64,000 nucleotides of DNA. It comes from a virus. The stretch is taken from IMG/VR virus record IMGVR_UViG_3300047315_000823, one strand, 5' to 3'. The notes beneath the pieces were generated by a model. The model was not told the origin of the DNA, made no database searches, and worked only from the letters and a program-made list of their open reading frames with translations. Below, in pieces: positions 27,075 to 33,753 of the stretch. The number at the start of each line of letters is the position of its first letter. Positions within the stretch are counted from its first letter, which is position 1. A program made the position numbers and the translations under genes.

Positions 27075-27728
27075 CTACGCAGCTGACTGGCTGACCTGCT
27101 GCCAGGGTGTCGGCCCAGTCTGTGACGCCCAGCCTGCGAGGGCCTGCTCATCGTAGAGGCGGATGCGCTGCGTGGCGGCGTAGCCGGCAGCCTGCCGAGT
27201 GAAGGCACTCGTGGTAACCACGACGGGGATCTGGGCGTGATGCACGGCGTAGCAGGTGCCTCCGAACCGCTGCATCTCCGGGGAGCCCACTTTGTGGGTA
27301 GGCCCGTAGCGCTTGCACTGGATCACGATCCGGCGGCCGTCCGGGGCCGTGGCGACGACGTCAGCTCCGAGGTCTCCGGCGCCGCCGCTCACCTCGACGT
27401 TGGTGCAGCCGTCTCGCTGGCACAGGTAGGCGATGGCGTGCTCAAACTCTTTGGGGCCGAGGACGTGGTAGCGGGCAATCTCGCGTGACTGCACCTCGCG
27501 GACCTGTGCCTGACGGGCATTCTCAAGGCGGCGCTGTTCGGCCTTGCGGGCGCGGCGCACAACGTAGATCCCACCGGCGACGGATGCGGCCAGGAGTAGC
27601 GGAACCCCCAGGCTTGGGACATGTTTGACCAGTTGGAGGAGAACCGCAAGGGGCACGAGTACCGCCCAGATGCCGCGGATGATGACGGACTGACAGGACA
27701 GACCGCGTCTGGTGCGGCGTGGCGGCAT
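27075..27728 (-). CDS. Mrr-like (PD-(D/E)xK) restriction endonuclease with N-terminal TM segments
   Basis: EFEHAIA, GGAGDLGADVV, IVIQCKRY, VVVTTSAFT; hydrophobic N-terminus. Confidence 0.85.
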   Translation of the reverse strand: MPPRRTRRGLSCQSVIIRGIWAVLVPLAVLLQLVKHVPSLGVPLLLAASVAGGIYVVRRARKAEQRRLENARQAQVREVQSREIARYHVLGPKEFEHAIAYLCQRDGCTNVEVSGGAGDLGADVVATAPDGRRIVIQCKRYGPTHKVGSPEMQRFGGTCYAVHHAQIPVVVTTSAFTRQAAGYAATQRIRLYDEQALAGWASQTGPTPWQQVSQSAA

Positions 27729-27872: not shown

Positions 27873-29537
27873 TCAGGTGGCCTTCGAGACCCAAGGCCAG
27901 GTCGCGTCGCGCCCGGCTTCAAGGAGCGGCACCAGGCGGAAGGCGGTATCCGTCAGACCGCCGAGCGTGTGTCGGCCTGCGGCCCCGGAGGGCATGGCAC
28001 CAGGCTTGTAGCCGGCCAGGTTCCACATGTAGACCGGCACGTGCTTCGGTACGAGGTTGTCGATCTGCGTCTCCCGCATCCCGCCGAAGCGTTCCATGTT
28101 GGACGGGAGCCAGCCGGGCCGGGTCTGTTCGTCGGTGACGACGATGACGCGGTCGTGCCGGTCGTAGTGCTTCTTGACGGCGGTCGGGATGTCGGTGCCG
28201 TCGTTCTGGCCGTACTGCTCGATGAGTTTGAGGACGCTGCCACCCTTGGGGACGTCTAGCCGCTTGGAGCTGCCGCCGAACTCAACGAGCGTCGGCGCCT
28301 CGGCGCGCATCGCGAGTGCGGAGCCGAAGACCGCGGCCTGTTCGGCAAGCGTGATGTCCGAGCTGTTCGGCGTGGAGAAGCGTAGGCCGGGGAACATCGA
28401 CGGGGAACGGTCGACGAGGATCAGCGTCCGACCGGACAGGCGGGGCACGTTGGCGAGGGAGTGGCCGAGGGCCTGCTCGAGCGCGTGAGCCCACCGCAGG
28501 GACGGGGCGTGCTTATAGGCGGCCCACCAGCGGAACGGGAACATGCGGGAGGCGTTCACTGCGGCCGGGTCGGTGAAGCGGGCGCAGATCTGGGCGGCCA
28601 CCGTATTGGATACGCCGACCTCGTCGAAGTTCCGGAGGTTCCTGGCGAGCGCCATCAGGCCCATGGACGGGATGATCGCCTCCCAGGCCGCCTTGTCCAT
28701 CGGTCCCTGGAGCCAGCCGGCCAGCGCCTCCCAGGTAATGCCTGCAGCCGCGAGCCGCTTGGCACTGTCGGGGGCCGTTACGACCGCGCGCCGCTCAGCG
28801 ACCGGTATGGCCATCAGCTCACGGTGCGCGGTCAGCGTCCGGTTCGACGTCGGCGGGATGGCGCTGTCGGGGTTGTGGCGTCGGTCGAGCGCGTACTGGA
28901 ACAGCTCGCCCTGCCATGGCTTGCCCGGGTCGGGTGCGGCGTGGACGAGGTTGAGGATGTCGCCGAAGCGGTAGCCCTTGGACGCGGTGTCGTACTTGAG
29001 CAGGCTTCGCTCGGTGTAGAGGTGCTGGACTGCGTCGGCGATGCCGCGCTTCACCGGCTTCGGCAGGCGGCGGCCGTAGCGGGAGGTCCAGTAGCCGAGC
29101 AACTCGCCAGGCTCGTCGGGACGCTGGAGGACGGCGTCGATGACGCGGCGGTTGAAGCCCGCGTCGAACGTTCCGTCGGTGGGGGCGGCGGCGTTGCGTG
29201 TCGCATCGAGTCGCGCCCATACGAACTCTGCGGCGCCGACCAGGGCCGCGATTCGCATGTTGCCTTCGCCTCGCAGCCAGCCGAGCAGGCCGACCGTCCA
29301 CTCCGGGTCCTCGACGGCCAGCTTGCGGACGAGCTGCGTGTACCGGTCGTCGCGGTCCCCGCCCTTCTCGTAGAAGGCGTCCTGGCCAACGAAGTTGGAC
29401 ACTGCCAGCAGGAAGAGTTCGGAGCGTGCGTCCCGGAGATGCCCAGTGGCGCCTTCGTGGGTGACGGTCCGCTCCCCGGTAGTGGTCACTGGCGAATGGA
29501 CGGCGGGACGGGTGCCGCGCTGGTTGAACCTGGACAT
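27873..29537 (-). CDS. rsr: Ro60/TROVE-domain RNA-binding protein with C-terminal vWA domain
   Basis: ELFLLAVSNF, LPKPVKRGIADA, KYD, ALARNLRN, SRMFPFR, ILVDRSPSM (MIDAS), IVVTDEQ, WNLAGY; true start MSRFN at 29537. Confidence 0.92.
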   Translation of the reverse strand: MSRFNQRGTRPAVHSPVTTTGERTVTHEGATGHLRDARSELFLLAVSNFVGQDAFYEKGGDRDDRYTQLVRKLAVEDPEWTVGLLGWLRGEGNMRIAALVGAAEFVWARLDATRNAAAPTDGTFDAGFNRRVIDAVLQRPDEPGELLGYWTSRYGRRLPKPVKRGIADAVQHLYTERSLLKYDTASKGYRFGDILNLVHAAPDPGKPWQGELFQYALDRRHNPDSAIPPTSNRTLTAHRELMAIPVAERRAVVTAPDSAKRLAAAGITWEALAGWLQGPMDKAAWEAIIPSMGLMALARNLRNFDEVGVSNTVAAQICARFTDPAAVNASRMFPFRWWAAYKHAPSLRWAHALEQALGHSLANVPRLSGRTLILVDRSPSMFPGLRFSTPNSSDITLAEQAAVFGSALAMRAEAPTLVEFGGSSKRLDVPKGGSVLKLIEQYGQNDGTDIPTAVKKHYDRHDRVIVVTDEQTRPGWLPSNMERFGGMRETQIDNLVPKHVPVYMWNLAGYKPGAMPSGAAGRHTLGGLTDTAFRLVPLLEAGRDATWPWVSKAT

Positions 29538-29538
29538 G

Positions 29539-29561
29539 AAAAAGCCCCTCGCGTGGAGGGG
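29539..29561 (-). terminator. Intrinsic terminator immediately before the rsr ATG, sequestering its SD
   Basis: CCCCTC-CACGC-GAGGGG-C-TTTTT-C-ATG. Confidence 0.7.
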
Positions 29562-29573
29562 AGGTGCAGCAGT

Positions 29574-29717
29574 GGGGTGCCCGAGATCAAGGTCGGTGCG
29601 GGTGACAAGGCGCTCTGCCGATTGAGCTACAGAAGCCGCTAAGCCTCCGGCGGGACTCGAACCCGCAACCACCCCATTAGCAGTGGAAGTAACCCGTACC
29701 TGCGCACCGGGCACCCC
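29574..29717 (-). ncRNA. yrlA: YrlA-type Y RNA (tRNA-mimic domain on a Ro-binding stem)
   Basis: Terminal stem GGGGTGCCCG/CGGGCACCCC, GGTGCGCAG/CTTGATCTC Ro-site-like helix, T arm GCGGG-TTCGAGT-CCCGC, closed 7-bp acceptor stem, D arm GCTC-AATCGGCA-GAGC. Confidence 0.85.
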
Positions 29718-29719
29718 CG

Positions 29720-29802
29720 ATGCTGTGCCTCCCGAGATCAAGACGGCTGCGGGTCTGTTTCGCCAAAGGAAGGAACCGCAGCCTGCGCACCGGGAGGTGC
29801 AT
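29720..29802 (-). ncRNA. Second, shorter Y RNA (YrlB-like)
   Basis: CCTCCCG/CGGGAGG stem, the same CCGGTGCGCAGG...CTTGATCTCGGG motif, internal GGCTGCGG/CCGCAGCC stem. Confidence 0.75.
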
Positions 29803-29934: not shown

Positions 29935-30267
29935 TCACACGTCGATGGAGTCAAGGTACGGCTTGGCCCGGTCCGGGATGGGGCGAGGTGCTGGCGGTTC
30001 GAGGCCGGCGGTGCGGATGTAGGAGACGAGGCCGCGCCGGTCGACCACGAGCCAGGAGATCGCCGCGCCCTGGCCGGTGATCTGTTCCTGCTGGCCCGTC
30101 AGATCGTCCTTCAGGTCGTCGATGCGTTCGTTGAGCGCCTTCTTGATCTCGGTGAAGTCGTCGCGCTTCTCCTGCCGCTTCGTCCGGCGTGCCGAGCGTG
30201 CCGACACGACGCCGCCCGCTGCCGCGACGACAGCCATACCCGCCTGCACCCAGGTGTCCGCGCCCAT
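29935..30267 (-). CDS. Membrane-anchored coiled-coil lysis-cassette protein
   Basis: N-terminal TM plus coiled coil; last gene of the lysis operon. Confidence 0.7.
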   Translation of the reverse strand: MGADTWVQAGMAVVAAAGGVVSARSARRTKRQEKRDDFTEIKKALNERIDDLKDDLTGQQEQITGQGAAISWLVVDRRGLVSYIRTAGLEPPAPRPIPDRAKPYLDSIDV

Positions 30268-30689
30268 CAGCCCTCAACTCTCTTGGGCCGGGGCGCCTCT
30301 CGCCACCCGGCAGCGACGATCACCGGTATAGCGATCACAGCCCAGACCGCGGCGGCCACCCAGCCTCTCGGGAAGTCACCCAGGAGCCACGACACCAGAT
30401 AGGACAGCATCCACGGCAGGACGATGAGGACGAGGGCGACGAAGCCGAACCAGTCCACGCCCTGCGGCACGAACGCTGCGCCGAGGGCCAGGATGCCGGT
30501 GGCGATCCACAGCCAGCCCCAGACGTGCAGCGGCAGCACTTGCGTTGCCAGGGTGAGACCGCGCTGGTCGGGCTGCGGGGAGACGAGCTGTCCGTACCCG
30601 TAGAGGGCCCACACCGTGCCGTAGCTGAGGAGGATGGCGCCGCGGCGGCCCAGCATTCGCATCAGCCGCCGGGCCGCACGGCACCGCAT
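30267..30689 (-). CDS. Four-TM membrane protein (lysis cassette)
   Basis: Four hydrophobic helices; the start may be a few codons downstream. Confidence 0.7.
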   Translation of the reverse strand: MRCRAARRLMRMLGRRGAILLSYGTVWALYGYGQLVSPQPDQRGLTLATQVLPLHVWGWLWIATGILALGAAFVPQGVDWFGFVALVLIVLPWMLSYLVSWLLGDFPRGWVAAAVWAVIAIPVIVAAGWREAPRPKRVEG

Positions 30690-31010
30690 TTACACGCTCC
30701 GGGGCTGCTGGGCGGGGACGCCGCCGGTGGAGGTGGCCCGCTCGATGCCGGGTGCGATCCCGGAGGGCTTCCACAGCAGGTGATAGGCGGCGCCGATGGC
30801 GACGGCGGCGACGAGTATGCAGGTGACGATGCTCTTGCTGACGAACTCGCCGTTGAAGTAGGCGGTTCCCACGCCGTCGAGGACGGCGACGACGAGCATG
30901 AGGAGGCCCTTGACGGCGCCGGTCCAGCGGGGCTGCGCCACGATCGCGATGGCGAGCGGCAGCAGGTAGCCGAGGGCCGCAGCCCACAGCTGTGCGTCGG
31001 TGGGGTGCAT
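30690..31010 (-). CDS. Holin-like protein
   Basis: Three TM helices, 106 aa, downstream of the endolysin. Confidence 0.7.
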   Translation of the reverse strand: MHPTDAQLWAAALGYLLPLAIAIVAQPRWTGAVKGLLMLVVAVLDGVGTAYFNGEFVSKSIVTCILVAAVAIGAAYHLLWKPSGIAPGIERATSTGGVPAQQPRSV

Positions 31011-31024
31011 CAGTGTCTCGATTC

Positions 31025-31372
31025 TTAGACGGGCTGCGCGAGTTGTCTGCAGCCGATGACGGTGCCAGTGGCGTTCCGTACCTCGCGGTACGGGACGAGG
31101 AGGTCGTCGCGTCCGCGCGTCAGGAGCGACAGGGCGACGGGCAGGGACACAATGAGCTGCACGCCGTCGCGTTTGGGCGGGAGGTCGTGGGCATGGCTGT
31201 ACACGACAAGTTCGATGCCGTCCGGCTGGGTGCCGAGTTCGACCATGGCCAACCGGGCGGGCTTGGCCTCGGGTTCGATGGCCTCGCGCAGGTGCGGTTC
31301 GAGGTCGTCAGATCCGTCCTCGCGCGCGTTCATGTAGAGGCGGATCGGGTGCGGAGTGAGGTTGAGGATCAC
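31025..31372 (-). CDS. NLTPH-motif small protein (possible ring-nuclease family)
   Basis: NLTPHPI, IVSLPVA, RDDLLVP, VRNATGTVIGCR; GTGA overlap with the exonuclease. Confidence 0.7.
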   Translation of the reverse strand: MILNLTPHPIRLYMNAREDGSDDLEPHLREAIEPEAKPARLAMVELGTQPDGIELVVYSHAHDLPPKRDGVQLIVSLPVALSLLTRGRDDLLVPYREVRNATGTVIGCRQLAQPV

Positions 31373-31953
31373 GCCGCCTCCCCTGCCGCGCGCCCGACGA
31401 GGAGACGTCGGACGGTCTGGTTGTGGCGGGCATCGGCGAGCGCGTTGTGCACTCCGCCGTCCTGCTTCGGCAGGTCGTCCCAGCCGAGGCCCTGGCGTCG
31501 AGCCTCCTGCTGGATGTCGTTGGTGAACATCGGAACACCCTCGGGCAGGTCGATCATTCGGCCCCAGAGCTGTGCGAGGCAGACATGGTCGTAGGCGCCG
31601 TAGTCGGCCCAGAGCTGCACGTCAGGCCCAGTGGCGCGGATGAAGTCCATGACCTCGTCGGCGATCCGCTCGATGGGTTTCACGGCCGGGTCGAGGTAGT
31701 TGAACAGCCAGGACTGCGGCATGTGGTTGCGCCAGTCCCCGTGTGGTTGCGGCAGGTGCGGGATCACGTTCTCCATCAGCCACTTGTGCTTGCGCACCCG
31801 GCGCCGGAACCGCCAGCCCTTCCAGCCTCGCGCGGCGAGGAGCCCGTTGACGGCGTAGTACTCGCGCCCGTCCTCCGCCTTCATGCCGATAGAGATCGGC
31901 TCGATGCGGACACCGTCCTCCAGGAACTCCCAGTCGTAGTCGACCGCGGTCAT
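31369..31953 (-). CDS. DEDDh 3'-5' exoribonuclease, RNase AS (Rv2179c)-like
   Basis: YDWEFLEDG..IEPISIG, WLMENVIPHL, WADYGAYDHVCLAQLWGRMIDLP, HNALADARH. Confidence 0.85.
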   Translation of the reverse strand: MTAVDYDWEFLEDGVRIEPISIGMKAEDGREYYAVNGLLAARGWKGWRFRRRVRKHKWLMENVIPHLPQPHGDWRNHMPQSWLFNYLDPAVKPIERIADEVMDFIRATGPDVQLWADYGAYDHVCLAQLWGRMIDLPEGVPMFTNDIQQEARRQGLGWDDLPKQDGGVHNALADARHNQTVRRLLVGRAAGEAA

Positions 31954-32843
31954 GCGACCACCTGGAATCCATGCTTGCTGCCGAGCTTCGTGAGGGACGT
32001 CTTGCCGGGGATGCCGTCGGCGCCGGTTCCGCTGTAGCCGAGGTGCTTCTGCCAGGCCTTGTAGGCGTCGACGGTCTTCGAGCCGAACGAACCGTCGACG
32101 TACTGCGAGGTGAGCAGGCCTTCGGCCTTCAGCGCCTTTTCGACGATCAGGACTTCGTCCTTGTGACTGGTGTGGCCCTGCGCGGCGGCCGGGTCATGGC
32201 GCGCGGCGTAGACGATGTGCGCGAGGGAGACCTTCGGCTTCGCCGGGGTGGGCGGCTTGGCCGGCGCGGGCGGGGTGGGCGGCTTCGCGAACAGGTCCGG
32301 CATCAGGCCAGGGTCGAGGTGGCTGTTGCCGGGGATCTGGTTGTGGCCGTAGTGCCCGCCGAGTTTCTGCCAGCTGTCCAGGGACACGGTGTCGCGGACG
32401 AACCCGGTGGGTGCCCCGCCCGGCCACACGTCCTGGATGCCGAGGCTGCGCAGCCACGCCACGATCTTGTCGAGTCCCTTGCACGGGGTGTCCCGGACCG
32501 ACTCGTATCGCTTGCCGTTGACTGTCTCGCCCTGCGTGAACACCGTCTCGATCTGAATGCAGTACATGCCGGTGCGGTTGGTCCGGACGCTGCCCGCGTT
32601 CTGCAGGGACAGGGAGCGGGAGTCCGCGGGGAAGAACTGTGCGATCTCCCCGGTGAACGGATCCCACAGCAGGTGGGGGGCGACGCTGGCGCCGCCGCCG
32701 GTGAACCAGCCCAGTTCGGCGGCGAACGTCCAGTCGTGCTCGTTGGACGTGATGTGCCAGACGGCCCGCGCGGGGCCGCCGTTCATGATACCGGTGTTGC
32801 CGAGGGAATGCCGGGCCGCGCCGGGCATCCAGAGGTCGACCAT
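31950..32843 (-). CDS. Endolysin (amidase-like domain plus peptidoglycan-binding domain)
   Basis: AVWHIT, PHLLWDP, IQIE, GHNQIPGNSHLDPG; PT linker; DGSFGSKT...WQK...ADGIPG..SL..LG. Confidence 0.85.
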   Translation of the reverse strand: MVDLWMPGAARHSLGNTGIMNGGPARAVWHITSNEHDWTFAAELGWFTGGGASVAPHLLWDPFTGEIAQFFPADSRSLSLQNAGSVRTNRTGMYCIQIETVFTQGETVNGKRYESVRDTPCKGLDKIVAWLRSLGIQDVWPGGAPTGFVRDTVSLDSWQKLGGHYGHNQIPGNSHLDPGLMPDLFAKPPTPPAPAKPPTPAKPKVSLAHIVYAARHDPAAAQGHTSHKDEVLIVEKALKAEGLLTSQYVDGSFGSKTVDAYKAWQKHLGYSGTGADGIPGKTSLTKLGSKHGFQVVA

Positions 32844-32845
32844 GG

Positions 32846-33679
32846 TCAGGCTCCCGTCAGGTGGTTGTCGCGCGCCCACTCGCTCATCGACTGCCACGCC
32901 GCAACCAGACGCGGATCAAGTCCAGGAGTCGGAGAAGGAGTGGGCGAAGGAGGAGGGGAAGGCACGGTGGCCCAGACCGGGACGGTGACGTCGCCCTGCT
33001 GCGACAGCAGCCACTGCATGTCCGTCTGCGCCAGCCAGGCCGACCCGAGGCCGCCCCAGCTATCGCCCCACGAGTTGTCCATGCGGAACACGCCGGTGGT
33101 GGCGTTGTAGGCGGAGATCACGTACTCGTGGCCGCCAGCGACGCTGCTCTCACGGTCGACGCTCACGTATCCGCTCTTCGAGTCGACGTCGAACATCGAC
33201 TCCAGCCAGACGGTGCCGACCATCACGGGGCCCCTCTGCAGGGCGCTCTTCAGGGCATCGAGACTGAAGGCGTGAGTGTACGAAGCCGCGAGACCCAGCT
33301 TCTGCAGCGCCTTCGCGGCGCCAATGCCGCTCGAGCCGGTGTCGTCGGGCGGGTAAGTGCCCTTGACGCTGTCCAGCTGTGTGGCCAGCTCGTACACCTT
33401 CACCGCGAGGTTCTCGTCGACGAGGACGATGCTGTTGTTGACGGTTGCCGAGGTGAGGCCCGTGCGGGCCGCGGAGTCGGTACCGAGCAAACCGGTCGCG
33501 GCATTGCCCGTGCACGACCCAAGGTCGCCCTGGTCGAAAATCGGGGCGCGGCGCGTCCAGTCGACGCTCTTGATTGCCGACTTGGGTAGGACGCCGTGGG
33601 CGTAACGGAGGGACCGCGGGTCGTGCTGGACGTGCCGGCCGAGCCGCGGATCCGACGGCTCATAGACGTGCGTGCTCAA
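32846..33679 (-). CDS. Papain-like (C1) cysteine peptidase
   Basis: DQGDLGSCTGNA (Gln, Cys), GGHEY (His), DNSWGDSWG (Asn). Confidence 0.85.
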   Translation of the reverse strand: MSTHVYEPSDPRLGRHVQHDPRSLRYAHGVLPKSAIKSVDWTRRAPIFDQGDLGSCTGNAATGLLGTDSAARTGLTSATVNNSIVLVDENLAVKVYELATQLDSVKGTYPPDDTGSSGIGAAKALQKLGLAASYTHAFSLDALKSALQRGPVMVGTVWLESMFDVDSKSGYVSVDRESSVAGGHEYVISAYNATTGVFRMDNSWGDSWGGLGSAWLAQTDMQWLLSQQGDVTVPVWATVPSPPPSPTPSPTPGLDPRLVAAWQSMSEWARDNHLTGA

Positions 33680-33696: not shown

Positions 33697-33721
33697 AAAA
33701 AACGCCCCGGGAGTGGGGGCG
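33697..33721 (-). terminator. Intrinsic terminator after the tail module
   Basis: CGCCCC...GGGGCG followed by TTTTTT on the minus strand. Confidence 0.7.
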
Positions 33722-33753
33722 TCGGGGATGGTGAATCGTTCAGGCTGCGACGG

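What the first reader, a model, noticed from the sequence alone, without database searches (positions are those of the whole stretch)
31025..31953. Coupled RNase AS-like exonuclease and NLTPH protein inside the lysis operon: a possible oligoadenylate-destroying pair
Seen: endolysin, exonuclease and NLTPH gene are chained by ATGA and GTGA overlaps, splitting the endolysin from the holin. Established: RNase AS (Rv2179c) is a DEDDh exonuclease that prefers poly(A). From memory and unverified: the N-x-T-P-H...VS...DLLVP...VR...G.IGC pattern resembles the Crn4 family of cyclic-oligoadenylate ring nucleases, which also occur in phages. Inference: ring opening followed by degradation of linear oligo(A) would be an anti-type III CRISPR or anti-CBASS pair. 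Caveat: 2',3'-cyclic-phosphate ends may block a DEDDh enzyme. Alternatively the exonuclease could partner the nearby Ro60-Y RNP as PNPase does.
Basis: inference. Interest (0 to 1): 0.68.

Follow-up and report, generated by a model that had tools for sequence, protein, structure and literature searches.

The report
Phage Crn4b ring nuclease beside exonuclease
A temperate Streptomyces-type phage carries, between its cell-wall-cutting enzyme and its holin, a small enzyme of the published Crn4 family that destroys cyclic-oligoadenylate immune alarm signals; the RNase AS-like exonuclease next to it is a separate optional passenger gene, not a fixed partner.

Summary
On the minus strand the endolysin (31950-32897), an Rv2179c/RNase AS-like DEDDh exonuclease (31369-31953) and the 115-aa NLTPH protein (31025-31372) are chained by ATGA and GTGA overlaps. 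A 3-TM holin-like gene starts 14 nt further on.

The recalled Crn4 likeness is right. The NLTPH protein matches solved Crn4b by sequence (PDB 9r7b, E 2e-7, full length). Its model (pLDDT 96.9) hits only Crn4 structures (TM 0.74-0.75; next best E about 1). It keeps the catalytic His (H8) and Arg (R99), and a homodimer is predicted (0.69 against best control 0.09).

The "pair" is not supported as a conserved unit:
- Of about 48 related Streptomyces-group loci beside the window, 7 carry the exonuclease upstream of Crn4b; in most of the rest an endolysin-like gene abuts Crn4b.
- Of 57 loci with close exonuclease relatives, only 5 carry Crn4b.
- Of 84 further diverse viral Crn4 loci, 1 has the exonuclease nearby.
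- No fusion of the two was found.

Both are facultative passengers of the endolysin-holin junction. No Cas10 over the family cut-off was found in 151 sampled Streptomyces genomes, while 17 carry a CD-NTase, so CBASS-type signals are the more likely target.

Verdict: a new member of a known kind. This scan has already reported Crn4 genes on other DNA (38 findings).

The parts
31025..31372 (-). Crn4b-family ring nuclease homologue (115 aa; NLTPH motif with T6 and H8; R88; V98-R99; G107-C108)
   Evidence: phmmer against PDB: Crn4b 9r7b E 2e-7 over residues 2-113, Crn4a 9sma E 0.25. AF2 model pLDDT 96.9. Foldseek top 7 hits are all Crn4 structures, 9r7b E 5.9e-9 and TM 0.74/0.75, next hit E 0.94. 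Near-invariant N4 T6 P7 H8 R40 R88 D90 R99 G107 C108 in 100 homologues. Homodimer prediction 0.69 against best control 0.09.
31369..31953 (-). Rv2179c/RNase AS-like DEDDh 3'-5' exonuclease (194 aa)
   Evidence: PF16473 E 4.8e-10, 39.9 bits against cut-off 27; phrog_2259 E 6.5e-45. PDB 4oke/6s0m/4hec E about 1e-24. Motifs YDWEF (D7, E9), GAYDH (D122) and HNALADAR (H169, D174) align with the RNase AS motifs.
31950..32897 (-). Endolysin with C-terminal peptidoglycan-binding domain
   Evidence: PG_binding_1 E 8.7e-6; phrog_29733 E 6.5e-96; phrog_17214 (endolysin) E 8.2e-58.
32846..33679 (-). Papain-like (Peptidase_C1) lysis-cassette peptidase, first gene of the cassette
   Evidence: PF00112 E 1.1e-4 (22.8 bits, cut-off 20.7); phrog_16701 peptidase E 2e-53.
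31950..31953 (-). ATGA overlap: endolysin stop and exonuclease start
   Evidence: Read from the sequence.
31369..31372 (-). GTGA overlap: exonuclease stop and Crn4b start
   Evidence: Read from the sequence. The same 4-nt overlap between the upstream gene and Crn4b is seen in most related loci, whatever the upstream gene is.
30690..31010 (-). Holin-like membrane protein (106 aa, 3 predicted TM segments), 14 nt downstream of Crn4b
   Evidence: Hydrophobic segments 6-24, 29-47 and 54-72. No family match of its own. Genes at this position in related loci match holin phrog_9752 and phrog_8269.
30267..30689 (-). Second membrane protein of the cassette (140 aa, 3 hydrophobic segments)
   Evidence: phrog_4026 E 2.6e-22 (labelled minor tail protein in PHROGs); TM segments. 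It recurs downstream of the holin in related loci.
29935..30267 (-). Last small gene of the cassette (110 aa, function unknown)
   Evidence: ORF with GC3 0.87; weak phrog_20825 match; recurs after the 140-aa gene in related loci.
33701..33723 (-). Terminator-like hairpin upstream of the cassette, between tail genes and peptidase gene
   Evidence: Consensus scan only. No sigma-70-like promoter was found inside the cassette, but that scan is poorly suited to Streptomyces.

Best explanation
The 115-aa NLTPH protein is a viral member of the Crn4b ring-nuclease family.

Mechanism, inferred from the solved family members: it forms a homodimer in which a beta-hairpin arm of each subunit wraps the other. 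A cyclic oligoadenylate binds at the dimer interface. His8 of one subunit and Arg99 of the other cut the ring without metal, giving short linear oligoadenylates with 5'-OH and 2',3'-cyclic-phosphate ends. Crn4b prefers cA4 and cA3.

Expression, inferred: the gene is made from the late lysis operon, translationally coupled to the gene ahead of it. It would blunt cyclic-oligoadenylate immune signalling in the infected cell. In Streptomyces that signal more likely comes from CBASS-type systems than from type III CRISPR.

The RNase AS-like DEDDh exonuclease upstream is a second, independent accessory gene. It occupies the same endolysin-holin junction in many related phages without Crn4b, so the two are co-resident passengers and not an obligate pair.

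Shown here: family membership by sequence, fold and conserved residues; gene order; distribution of the two genes. Inferred: enzymatic activity, substrate, timing and target defence system.
For: Crn4b identity:
- phmmer hit to 9r7b, E 2e-7, full length, with NLTPH and VR..G.IGCR aligned.
- Foldseek finds only Crn4 structures (E 5.9e-9 to 1.4e-6, TM up to 0.75; next best E 0.94), using a model of pLDDT 96.9.
- T6, H8, R88 and R99 are at least 90% conserved in 100 homologues. They correspond to T13/H15/R92/R112 of Crn4a and H17/R103 of Crn4b, shown by mutagenesis to be needed for activity (PMC12830947).
- Predicted homodimer: score 0.69, best of 3 controls 0.09. The mark was reached by 20 of 30 proteins solved as pairs of one chain and by 1 of 23 solved as single chains. 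Runs agree in at least 97% of contacts; partner pLDDT 91. The interface is hairpin 43-59 against strand 110-115 plus helix 77-85. Crn4 dimers are solved, so this pass may reflect likeness.

Conserved place in the lysis cassette:
- In the 48 related loci the gene ahead of Crn4b usually overlaps its start by 4 nt. In most it is endolysin-like: 29 upstream ORFs form one similarity cluster, and sampled members and other upstream ORFs match Amidase_2, GH25, PG_binding_1 or endolysin PHROGs.
- A small downstream gene follows about 12 nt later. The largest cluster of these (20 loci) and another cluster match holin PHROGs.

Independence of the exonuclease:
- It lies upstream of Crn4b in 6 of 28 Streptomyces-type IMG/VR loci and 1 of 20 genome loci.
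- Its presence is scattered on the Crn4b tree: 6 changes, at least 4 forced by supported branches.
- Only 5 of 57 loci with close exonuclease relatives carry Crn4b. In 28 of the 52 others the exonuclease is followed directly by a 2-4-TM holin-like ORF.
- Only 1 of 84 diverse viral Crn4 loci has the exonuclease in the stretch held (about 1.9 kb away, opposite strand).
- None of 218 cultured phages with the exonuclease was among the Streptomyces or Mycobacterium phages with Crn4; there were none of those.
- No Crn4-exonuclease fusion among 26 long forms.

Likely target:
- Csm1 in 0 of 151 and Cmr2 over cut-off in 0 of 151 sampled Streptomyces genomes; SMODS CD-NTase in 17 of 151.
- Among 5 lysogens, none has Cas10 and one has a CD-NTase with a SAVED protein on the same contig.
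Against: - No activity was measured. Substrate range is extrapolated from two characterised relatives at 21-28% identity.
- Anti-defence genes are usually expressed early, so a ring nuclease welded to late lysis genes is an odd place for one and hints that something about its role is not understood.
- The Cas10 models may miss divergent type III systems, and lysogens are a biased sample of hosts.
- The exonuclease does recur near Crn4 in three unrelated Crn4 lineages: the Streptomyces group, the low-GC phage L029 (about 0.9 kb downstream, same strand) and L115.
- Other end-processing enzymes also turn up beside or fused to Crn4. L010 has a HAD-like gene with a weak RNA-repair HAD match in the same slot, and P0263 is an AAA_33 kinase fusion.
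- Some functional interplay is therefore not excluded.
Confidence: 0.75

Rival explanations
1. First reader's model. Crn4b and the RNase AS-like exonuclease form a two-step pathway: the ring is opened, then the linear oligoadenylates are degraded to AMP. This would remove still-active linear activators and recycle adenylate, as a dedicated anti-type III CRISPR/anti-CBASS pair.
For: - The two genes are translationally coupled here and in L003, L004 and L008.
- Wherever the exonuclease occurs in a Crn4b cassette of this phage group it is the gene immediately upstream of Crn4b, with a 4-nt overlap in some loci and a gap of up to about 200 nt in L028.
- The exonuclease recurs within 2.5 kb of Crn4 in 3 of 64 Crn4 lineages, making it one of the few recurrent neighbours.
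- Crn4b releases linear A3>P/A4>P intermediates (PMC12830947).
- From my own knowledge, not checked here: RNase AS prefers adenylate RNA.
- Other end-processing enzymes neighbour or are fused to Crn4: a HAD-like gene in L010 and an AAA_33 fusion in P0263.
Against: - Each gene is found alone in the same slot far more often than both together: Crn4b given the exonuclease in 5 of 57 loci; the exonuclease given Crn4b in 7 of 48 related loci and 1 of 84 diverse ones.
- No fusion of the two was found.
- The exonuclease family is common in actinophage replication regions and even in a head-gene region (phage ZL12), without Crn4.
- Crn4 products end in 2',3'-cyclic phosphate, which from general knowledge of DEDD exonucleases is expected to block them. 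No phosphatase is present in this window's cassette.
- Characterised Crn4 neutralises immunity on its own (PMC12830947).
Confidence: 0.12
2. The exonuclease works with the nearby phage Ro60-Y RNA particle as a tethered 3'-5' RNA-degrading machine, as PNPase does in Deinococcus. Crn4b would then be irrelevant to it.
For: A Ro60 (TROVE) gene lies about 1.3 kb downstream (27873-29741) with a tRNA-like element at 29641-29715. Ro60 lies within 5 kb of the exonuclease in 9 of 57 exonuclease loci.
Against: Most exonuclease loci (48 of 57) show no Ro60 in the flank. Ro60 occurs with Crn4b but without the exonuclease in L010, L011, L024 and L033. The exonuclease is widespread in phages with no Ro60 noted nearby. 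No test of binding was made.
Confidence: 0.05
3. The Crn4b homologue is a lysis accessory and not an anti-defence enzyme. Its fixed place between endolysin and holin would reflect degradation of a host adenylate second messenger, for example c-di-AMP or another cyclic adenylate that governs wall or osmotic homeostasis, so as to sensitise the cell to lysis.
For: - Its position is conserved and translationally coupled inside lysis cassettes with several different endolysin types.
- Expression is late, which is atypical for anti-defence genes (no internal promoter found).
- No type III CRISPR was found in 151 sampled Streptomyces genomes.
- The Crn4 paper does not mention c-di-AMP, so it is untested as a substrate.
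Against: - The same junction also hosts unrelated passengers (exonuclease, HAD-like gene), which is typical of a moron slot.
- Across viruses of 21-72% GC, Crn4 homologues sit in varied contexts, for example near SSB genes or a Tad2-like anti-defence gene, and share no recurrent neighbour.
- All measured Crn4 substrates are cA3-cA6 immune signals (PMC12830947).
Confidence: 0.05

Closest known systems
Crn4b ring nuclease (Hyphomicrobiales protein; PDB 9r7b; Chi et al., Nat Commun 2025, PMC12830947)
   Same: Same size class (115 aa against about 115-128). Full-length sequence match (E 2e-7, 28% identity in the structural alignment). Same fold (TM 0.74/0.75). Shared NLTPH motif with Thr and catalytic His, the RDD motif and the VR..G.IGCR motif with catalytic Arg. 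Predicted hairpin-wrapped homodimer. The paper already notes Crn4b copies in phages and plasmids as likely anti-CRISPRs.
   Different: It is encoded inside a late lysis operon of a temperate Streptomyces-type phage, not in a type III CRISPR locus next to Can2. The host genus shows no detectable Cas10 in 151 sampled genomes. Activity and substrate range are untested.
Crn4a (Actinomyces procaprae WP_136192672; PDB 9sma, 9qs9)
   Same: Same fold (Foldseek E about 1e-7 to 1e-6, TM 0.63-0.69) and the same catalytic His/Arg pair.
   Different: Crn4a has a roughly 10-residue longer hairpin arm and also cuts cA6. Its sequence match to the window protein is only marginal (E 0.25).
AcrIII-1 / Crn2 (DUF1874) viral ring nuclease
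   Same: Works alike: a small viral homodimer that cuts cA4 on both sides with a catalytic His, giving A2>P and disabling type III signalling (as described in PMC12830947).
   Different: Unrelated fold and family; specific for cA4. No similarity was detected here.
RNase AS (Rv2179c) of Mycobacterium tuberculosis, PF16473 (PDB 4oke, 4hec, 6s0m)
   Same: The neighbouring 194-aa protein matches it at E about 1e-24 over its full length, with all DEDDh motifs aligned.
   Different: The phage protein carries two short insertions (about residues 37-50 and 77-96). Its substrate is unknown. In actinophage records the family is annotated as DnaQ-like, RNase H or exonuclease, and it sits in replication, head or lysis regions.
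Acb1 anti-CBASS phosphodiesterase of phages
   Same: A phage enzyme that degrades cA3 and other CBASS signals. This is the same strategic role that the Crn4 paper proposes for viral Crn4b.
   Different: Different fold (2H phosphoesterase) and broader nucleotide range. Not present in this window as far as I looked.

Membership tests
Crn4 ring nucleases (subfamily Crn4b) | Significant sequence similarity to characterised or solved Crn4 proteins | tested here: met
   phmmer against PDB: 9r7b (Crn4b) E 2e-7 over residues 2-113; 9sma (Crn4a) E 0.25.
Crn4 ring nucleases (subfamily Crn4b) | The Crn4 fold (described as unrelated to any other known structure) | tested here: met
   AF2 model pLDDT 96.9. 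Foldseek against PDB: the 7 best hits are all Crn4 chains, best E 5.9e-9 and TM 0.74/0.75; the eighth hit has E 0.94.
Crn4 ring nucleases (subfamily Crn4b) | Conserved Thr and catalytic His in the N-terminal NLTPH motif (T13/H15 in Crn4a; H17 in Crn4b) | tested here: met
   T6 and H8 align with the Crn4b motif and are at least 90% conserved in 100 homologues.
Crn4 ring nucleases (subfamily Crn4b) | Catalytic Arg near the C-terminus (R112 in Crn4a; R103 in Crn4b) and ligand-stacking Arg (R92 in Crn4a) | tested here: met
   R99 aligns with the Arg of EVRDATG in 9r7b, and R88 with the RDD motif. Both are at least 90% conserved.
Crn4 ring nucleases (subfamily Crn4b) | Homodimer with a beta-hairpin arm wrapping the partner, so that His and Arg come from different subunits | tested here: inconclusive
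   Prediction only: score 0.69 against best control 0.09. The mark was reached by 20 of 30 proteins solved as pairs of one chain and 1 of 23 solved as single chains. Contacts agree in at least 97% between runs; pLDDT 91. Interface 43-59 against 110-115 and 77-85. Crn4 dimers are solved, so the pass may reflect likeness. Whether His and Arg come together across subunits was not measured.
Crn4 ring nucleases (subfamily Crn4b) | Short form lacking the roughly 10-residue hairpin extension of Crn4a | tested here: met
   115 aa. The alignment to Crn4b is nearly gap-free, whereas the alignment to Crn4a needs several insertions on the Crn4a side. TM is higher to Crn4b than to Crn4a.
Crn4 ring nucleases (subfamily Crn4b) | Metal-independent cleavage of cA3/cA4 (and cA6 for Crn4a) to linear products with 2',3'-cyclic phosphate | not testable with these tools
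   Needs purified protein and HPLC or mass spectrometry.
Crn4 ring nucleases (subfamily Crn4b) | Association with a type III CRISPR locus (cellular members only; not required of the published phage and plasmid copies) | tested here: not met
   The gene lies in a phage lysis cassette. No Cas10 in 5 lysogen genomes, and none over cut-off in 151 Streptomyces genomes.
Rv2179c-like / RNase AS DEDDh exoribonucleases (PF16473) | Pfam match above the gathering score and similarity to the solved enzyme | tested here: met
   39.9 bits against cut-off 27. PDB 4oke E 8.5e-25 over residues 6-185.
Rv2179c-like / RNase AS DEDDh exoribonucleases (PF16473) | DEDDh catalytic residues | tested here: met
   YDWEF (D7, E9), GAYDH (D122) and HNALADAR (H169, D174) align with YDTEF, GAYDH and HDALVDAR of Rv2179c. 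The assignment of these motifs as catalytic rests on general knowledge of DEDDh enzymes.
Rv2179c-like / RNase AS DEDDh exoribonucleases (PF16473) | Preference for adenylate-containing RNA; 3'-5' release of AMP | not testable with these tools
   Needs an enzyme assay. The original RNase AS paper is not in the held library.
   Both genes together in 7 of 48 related loci, 5 of 57 exonuclease loci and 1 of 84 diverse Crn4 loci. Exonuclease presence is scattered on the Crn4b tree.
   None among 12 longer homologues and 14 other extended forms. The search for long forms has limited sensitivity.
   Needs an enzyme assay.

The most novel reading that the evidence does not exclude
The endolysin-holin junction of this temperate Streptomyces phage group may be a slot that collects enzymes acting on oligoadenylate or RNA ends: the Crn4b ring nuclease, the RNase AS-like 3'-5' exonuclease and an RNA-repair-type HAD-like phosphatase. 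Elsewhere Crn4 is fused to an AAA_33 kinase-like domain. Where the enzymes coincide they would form a stepwise route from cyclic oligoadenylate to AMP. That route would also clear linear A3>P/A4>P species that can still activate effectors, and it would be timed late to meet CBASS-type signalling triggered by late phage products.
Probability: 0.12. Interest if true: 0.62.

Novelty: new member of a known kind. Interest (0 to 1): 0.36.

Why it matters
Crn4 was described in 2025 from about 22 CRISPR-linked genes, 11 phage genomes and 10 plasmids. This report adds four things.

- A well-supported Crn4b member lies in a temperate actinophage.
- The family is much commoner in viruses than that count suggests: 534 clusters at 50% identity, and 84 of the pattern matches returned from IMG/VR, on viral contigs of 21-72% GC.
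- In one large group of Streptomyces prophages the gene is welded into the late lysis operon, in a genus where type III CRISPR was not found in 151 sampled genomes but CBASS cyclases were found in 11%. That points to anti-CBASS use of a "CRISPR" ring nuclease, and to late-acting counter-defence, both of which can be tested in Streptomyces.
- A tempting gene pair is shown to be two independent passengers of one insertion hot spot, which guards against over-reading translational coupling as a functional partnership.

Tried and rejected
- Megablast of the cassette against cultured phages gave no match.
- No whole genome is held for the window, so the host's own defence systems could not be searched.
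- Rfam at gathering threshold found nothing in the window.
It was replaced by a degenerate DNA pattern for VRDxxGx[IV][IV]GCR.
- The look-up of encoding contigs on three distant Crn4 homologues gave only contigs of 0.8-2.9 kb, so that route was dropped.
- Pfam on ten extended or fused Crn4 forms found one domain only, AAA_33 in P0263. Pfam on six long viral Crn4 ORFs gave nothing useful.
- The 'kinase' annotated ahead of the Microcystis phage Ma-LMM01 Crn4 homologue is an FGE-sulfatase-domain protein, so the idea of a kinase-Crn4 pairing there was rejected.
- Clustering of neighbours across 64 Crn4 lineages found no strongly recurrent partner. The best was SSB in 4 lineages; the exonuclease was in 3.
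- A search of the held library for the RNase AS paper did not find it.
Binding between the exonuclease and Crn4b was not tested and is not claimed.
Full report
**1. Observation**

The window is 68% GC. It carries a long minus-strand block of phage structural genes that ends in a lysis cassette. In transcription order the cassette holds:
- a papain-like peptidase (32846-33679);
- an endolysin with a PG_binding_1 domain (31950-32897);
- a 194-aa protein (31369-31953);
- a 115-aa protein that begins MILNLTPHPI (31025-31372);
- a 106-aa protein with three hydrophobic segments (30690-31010);
- a 140-aa membrane protein, then a 110-aa protein.

The sequence shows the ATGA overlap at 31950-31953 and the GTGA overlap at 31369-31372. 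A 14-nt spacer precedes the holin-like gene. The 106-aa protein matches no holin family itself. Genes at the same position in related loci match holin phrog_9752 and phrog_8269.

**2. The NLTPH protein**

Pfam has no model for it. A plain phmmer search of PDB sequences nevertheless finds Crn4b (9r7b) at E 2e-7 over residues 2-113, and Crn4a (9sma) at E 0.25. The NLTPH motif and the C-terminal EVR..TG.IGCR motif are aligned.

The Crn4 paper (Chi et al. 2025, PMC12830947) defines the family by several features:
- a novel fold;
- a homodimer whose beta-hairpin arms wrap the partner;
- conserved T13, H15 and R112 in Crn4a (H17 and R103 in Crn4b). His and Arg are essential and come from different subunits.

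A search of 1.84 billion representatives gave 534 clusters at E <= 0.001. In an alignment of 100 of these homologues, N4, T6, P7, H8, R40, P65, V75, R88, D90, P94, V98, R99, G103, G107 and C108 are at least 90% conserved. With that alignment AlphaFold2 gives a model of mean pLDDT 96.9. Foldseek against the PDB returns seven hits with E <= 1.4e-6. All are Crn4 chains: 9r7b at E 5.9e-9 with TM 0.74/0.75, then 9sma and 9qs9. The eighth hit has E 0.94.

A two-copy prediction scores 0.69, against 0.09 for the best of three controls. The mark was reached by 20 of 30 proteins solved as pairs of one chain and by 1 of 23 solved as single chains. The runs agree in at least 97% of contacts and the partner pLDDT is 91. 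The interface joins hairpin 43-59 to the C-terminal strand 110-115 and helix 77-85. Crn4 dimers are solved, so this pass may reflect likeness and not independent evidence.

Size, sequence score and TM all place the protein in subfamily b. I regard family membership as established as far as computation can take it. Catalysis remains inferred.

**3. The exonuclease**

The 194-aa protein matches PF16473 (Rv2179c-like) above the gathering score. It matches the RNase AS structures at about 1e-24, with the YDWEF, GAYDH and HNALADAR motifs aligned to the enzyme's DEDDh motifs. The family is common in actinophages: 218 cultured phage records, mostly of Streptomyces, Mycobacterium and Gordonia. There it is annotated as DnaQ-like, RNase H or exonuclease and often sits in the replication region. 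In Streptomyces phage ZL12 (74% identity) it lies two genes after the major capsid protein gene.

**4. Are the two a pair?**

I tested this in both directions.

Starting from Crn4b:
- 29 IMG/VR loci and 21 species-representative genome loci encode relatives.
- In the 48 of these that belong to the Streptomyces-type group, the gene ahead of Crn4b usually overlaps its start by 4 nt. A small gene follows about 12 nt later.
- That upstream gene is the exonuclease in only 7 loci: L003, L004, L008, L015, L025, L028 and L045. L025 and L045 have identical Crn4b sequences, and so do L003 and L004.
- In most of the rest it is endolysin-like. Twenty-nine upstream ORFs form one similarity cluster. Sampled members and other upstream ORFs match Amidase_2, GH25, PG_binding_1 or endolysin PHROGs. 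A few upstream ORFs have no family match.
- On a Crn4b tree, exonuclease presence needs 6 changes, at least 4 of them forced by supported branches. It is not clearly clustered: 32 of 500 shuffles were as low.

Starting from the exonuclease:
- 57 IMG/VR loci encode relatives at 51-81% identity, and only 5 of them carry Crn4b. Those 5 are contigs already counted above.
- In 28 of the other 52, the exonuclease is followed directly by an ORF of about 80-127 aa with 2-4 TM segments. In many, an endolysin overlaps its start.
- The exonuclease alone therefore occupies the same junction.

Across the wider family:
- A degenerate DNA pattern for the C-terminal motif returned 86 further viral stretches. 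The local HMM found Crn4 in 84 further loci, with GC from 21 to 72%.
- Only one of these (L115) has the exonuclease, about 1.9 kb away on the other strand.
- One more distant low-GC phage (L029) has it about 0.9 kb downstream on the same strand.
- No Crn4-exonuclease fusion appeared among 26 longer forms. What did appear was a Crn4-AAA_33 fusion (P0263) and a tandem Crn4-Crn4 (P0232).

Crn4b and the exonuclease are independent, facultative passengers of one hot spot between endolysin and holin.

Some signs keep a facultative interplay alive at low probability:
- the exonuclease recurs near Crn4 in three unrelated Crn4 lineages;
- a 130-aa HAD-like gene (DFDGVLH motif; weak, sub-threshold match to the RNA-repair HAD family PF18143) fills the same slot in L010;
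- an earlier scan note describes the same layout in another genome.

All of these enzymes act on nucleotide or RNA ends, and Crn4 products carry 5'-OH and 2',3'-cyclic phosphate.

**5. What the ring nuclease is likely for**

Characterised Crn4b cuts cA4 and cA3 but not cA6. Crn4a relieves type III immunity in vivo, and the authors propose that phage copies are anti-CRISPR and possibly anti-CBASS enzymes.

Host defences:
- In five lysogen genomes carrying related prophages I found no Csm1- or Cmr2-type Cas10.
- One of them carries a CD-NTase and a SAVED-domain protein on the same contig.
- In 151 sampled Streptomyces genomes, Csm1 was found in 0 and Cmr2 above cut-off in 0. The SMODS CD-NTase domain was found in 17.

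The more likely target in this host genus is therefore CBASS-type cyclic oligoadenylate signalling. Two caveats apply: divergent Cas10 proteins could be missed, and lysogens are a biased sample of hosts.

The gene has no recognisable promoter of its own and is translationally coupled to late genes. This is unusual for a counter-defence gene. It would fit signalling that is triggered by late phage products, but that is inference. Crn4 also triggers type II Panoptes guard systems (PMC13577387), which is a cost that may keep the gene facultative.

**6. The Ro60 alternative**

Ro60 lies within the flank in 9 of 57 exonuclease loci and in 5 Crn4b loci, four of which lack the exonuclease. There is no sign of a dedicated link. 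The Ro60-Y RNA module of this window has been followed up separately in this scan.

**7. Verdict**

The recalled Crn4 resemblance is confirmed and is now a tested membership. The two-enzyme pair is not supported as a conserved system. This is a new member of a published family in a noteworthy genomic position.

The scan has already reported Crn4 genes on other DNA: 38 findings in at least 31 genomes. What is specific here is the lysis-cassette position, the likely CBASS target in Streptomyces, and the demonstration that the neighbouring exonuclease is an independent passenger.

Noticed in passing
IMG/VR loci L056-L141; protein ids P0121-P0270: Crn4 homologues are far commoner in viruses than the 11 phage genomes reported in 2025. 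A single degenerate DNA pattern returned 86 viral stretches, and the local Crn4 HMM matched 84 of the further loci, with GC from 21% to 72%. The representative library holds 534 clusters at 50% identity with E <= 0.001.
   Followed up: partly
L010:5612-6001 (+): In a related prophage the slot between endolysin and Crn4b holds a 130-aa HAD-like gene (DFDGVLH motif). It has a weak, sub-threshold match to PF18143, the HAD domain of 'Swiss Army Knife' RNA repair proteins (E 0.0017). An earlier scan note (e1-3641129) describes the same layout in another genome.
   Followed up: partly
P0263 (271 aa); P0232 (252 aa): P0263 is a Crn4 domain fused to a C-terminal AAA_33 P-loop kinase-like domain (E 1.6e-18). 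P0232 is a tandem Crn4-Crn4 fusion, that is, a single-chain pseudo-dimer.
   Followed up: no
L055:824-1555 and 2242-2592: A distant Crn4 homologue (P0175) lies two genes downstream of a Tad2-like (PF11195) gene on a 2.9-kb contig. This is an anti-defence-island-like context.
   Followed up: no
L052 (Microcystis phage Ma-LMM01, NC_008562.1 41222-42509): Ma-LMM01 gp061 (154 aa, annotated hypothetical) is a Crn4 homologue (31% identity). The overlapping upstream gp062, annotated 'kinase', is an FGE-sulfatase-domain protein (PF03781, E 5.9e-62). Eight Microcystis phage records and one archaeal virus record (BK063668.1) carry Crn4 homologues.
   Followed up: partly
window 29641-29715 (-) and 29545-29561 (-): ARAGORN calls a 'tRNA-Ser(gct)' just upstream of the Ro60 (TROVE) gene, followed by a terminator-like hairpin. 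This is the tRNA-like Y RNA element already treated in separate reports of this scan.
   Followed up: no
window 27075-27728 (-): A 217-aa protein with a hydrophobic N-terminal region and a C-terminal Mrr_cat restriction-endonuclease domain (PF04471, E 3.2e-26) lies downstream of Ro60.
   Followed up: no
L051 (Streptomyces phage ZL12, GQ919031.1 47257-47859): The closest cultured-phage relative of the exonuclease (74% identity) lies two genes after the major capsid protein gene and ahead of a DUF6093 gene, not in a lysis or replication module. The gene therefore moves between late-gene slots.
   Followed up: partly
L149:5561, L158:5564, L168:4159, L175:5548, L156:5548 (+ strand ORFs of 125-136 aa): In several Crn4-less exonuclease loci the gene right after the exonuclease is a protein of about 125-136 aa with no predicted TM segment and no Crn4 HMM match. 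These may be further passenger genes of the same junction.
   Followed up: no
L029:5995-7823: A 35% GC phage contig carries a distant Crn4 homologue (34% identity). Three small genes further on, on the same strand, it carries an Rv2179c-like exonuclease (35% identity). This is the only clearly independent same-strand recurrence of the two genes.
   Followed up: partly
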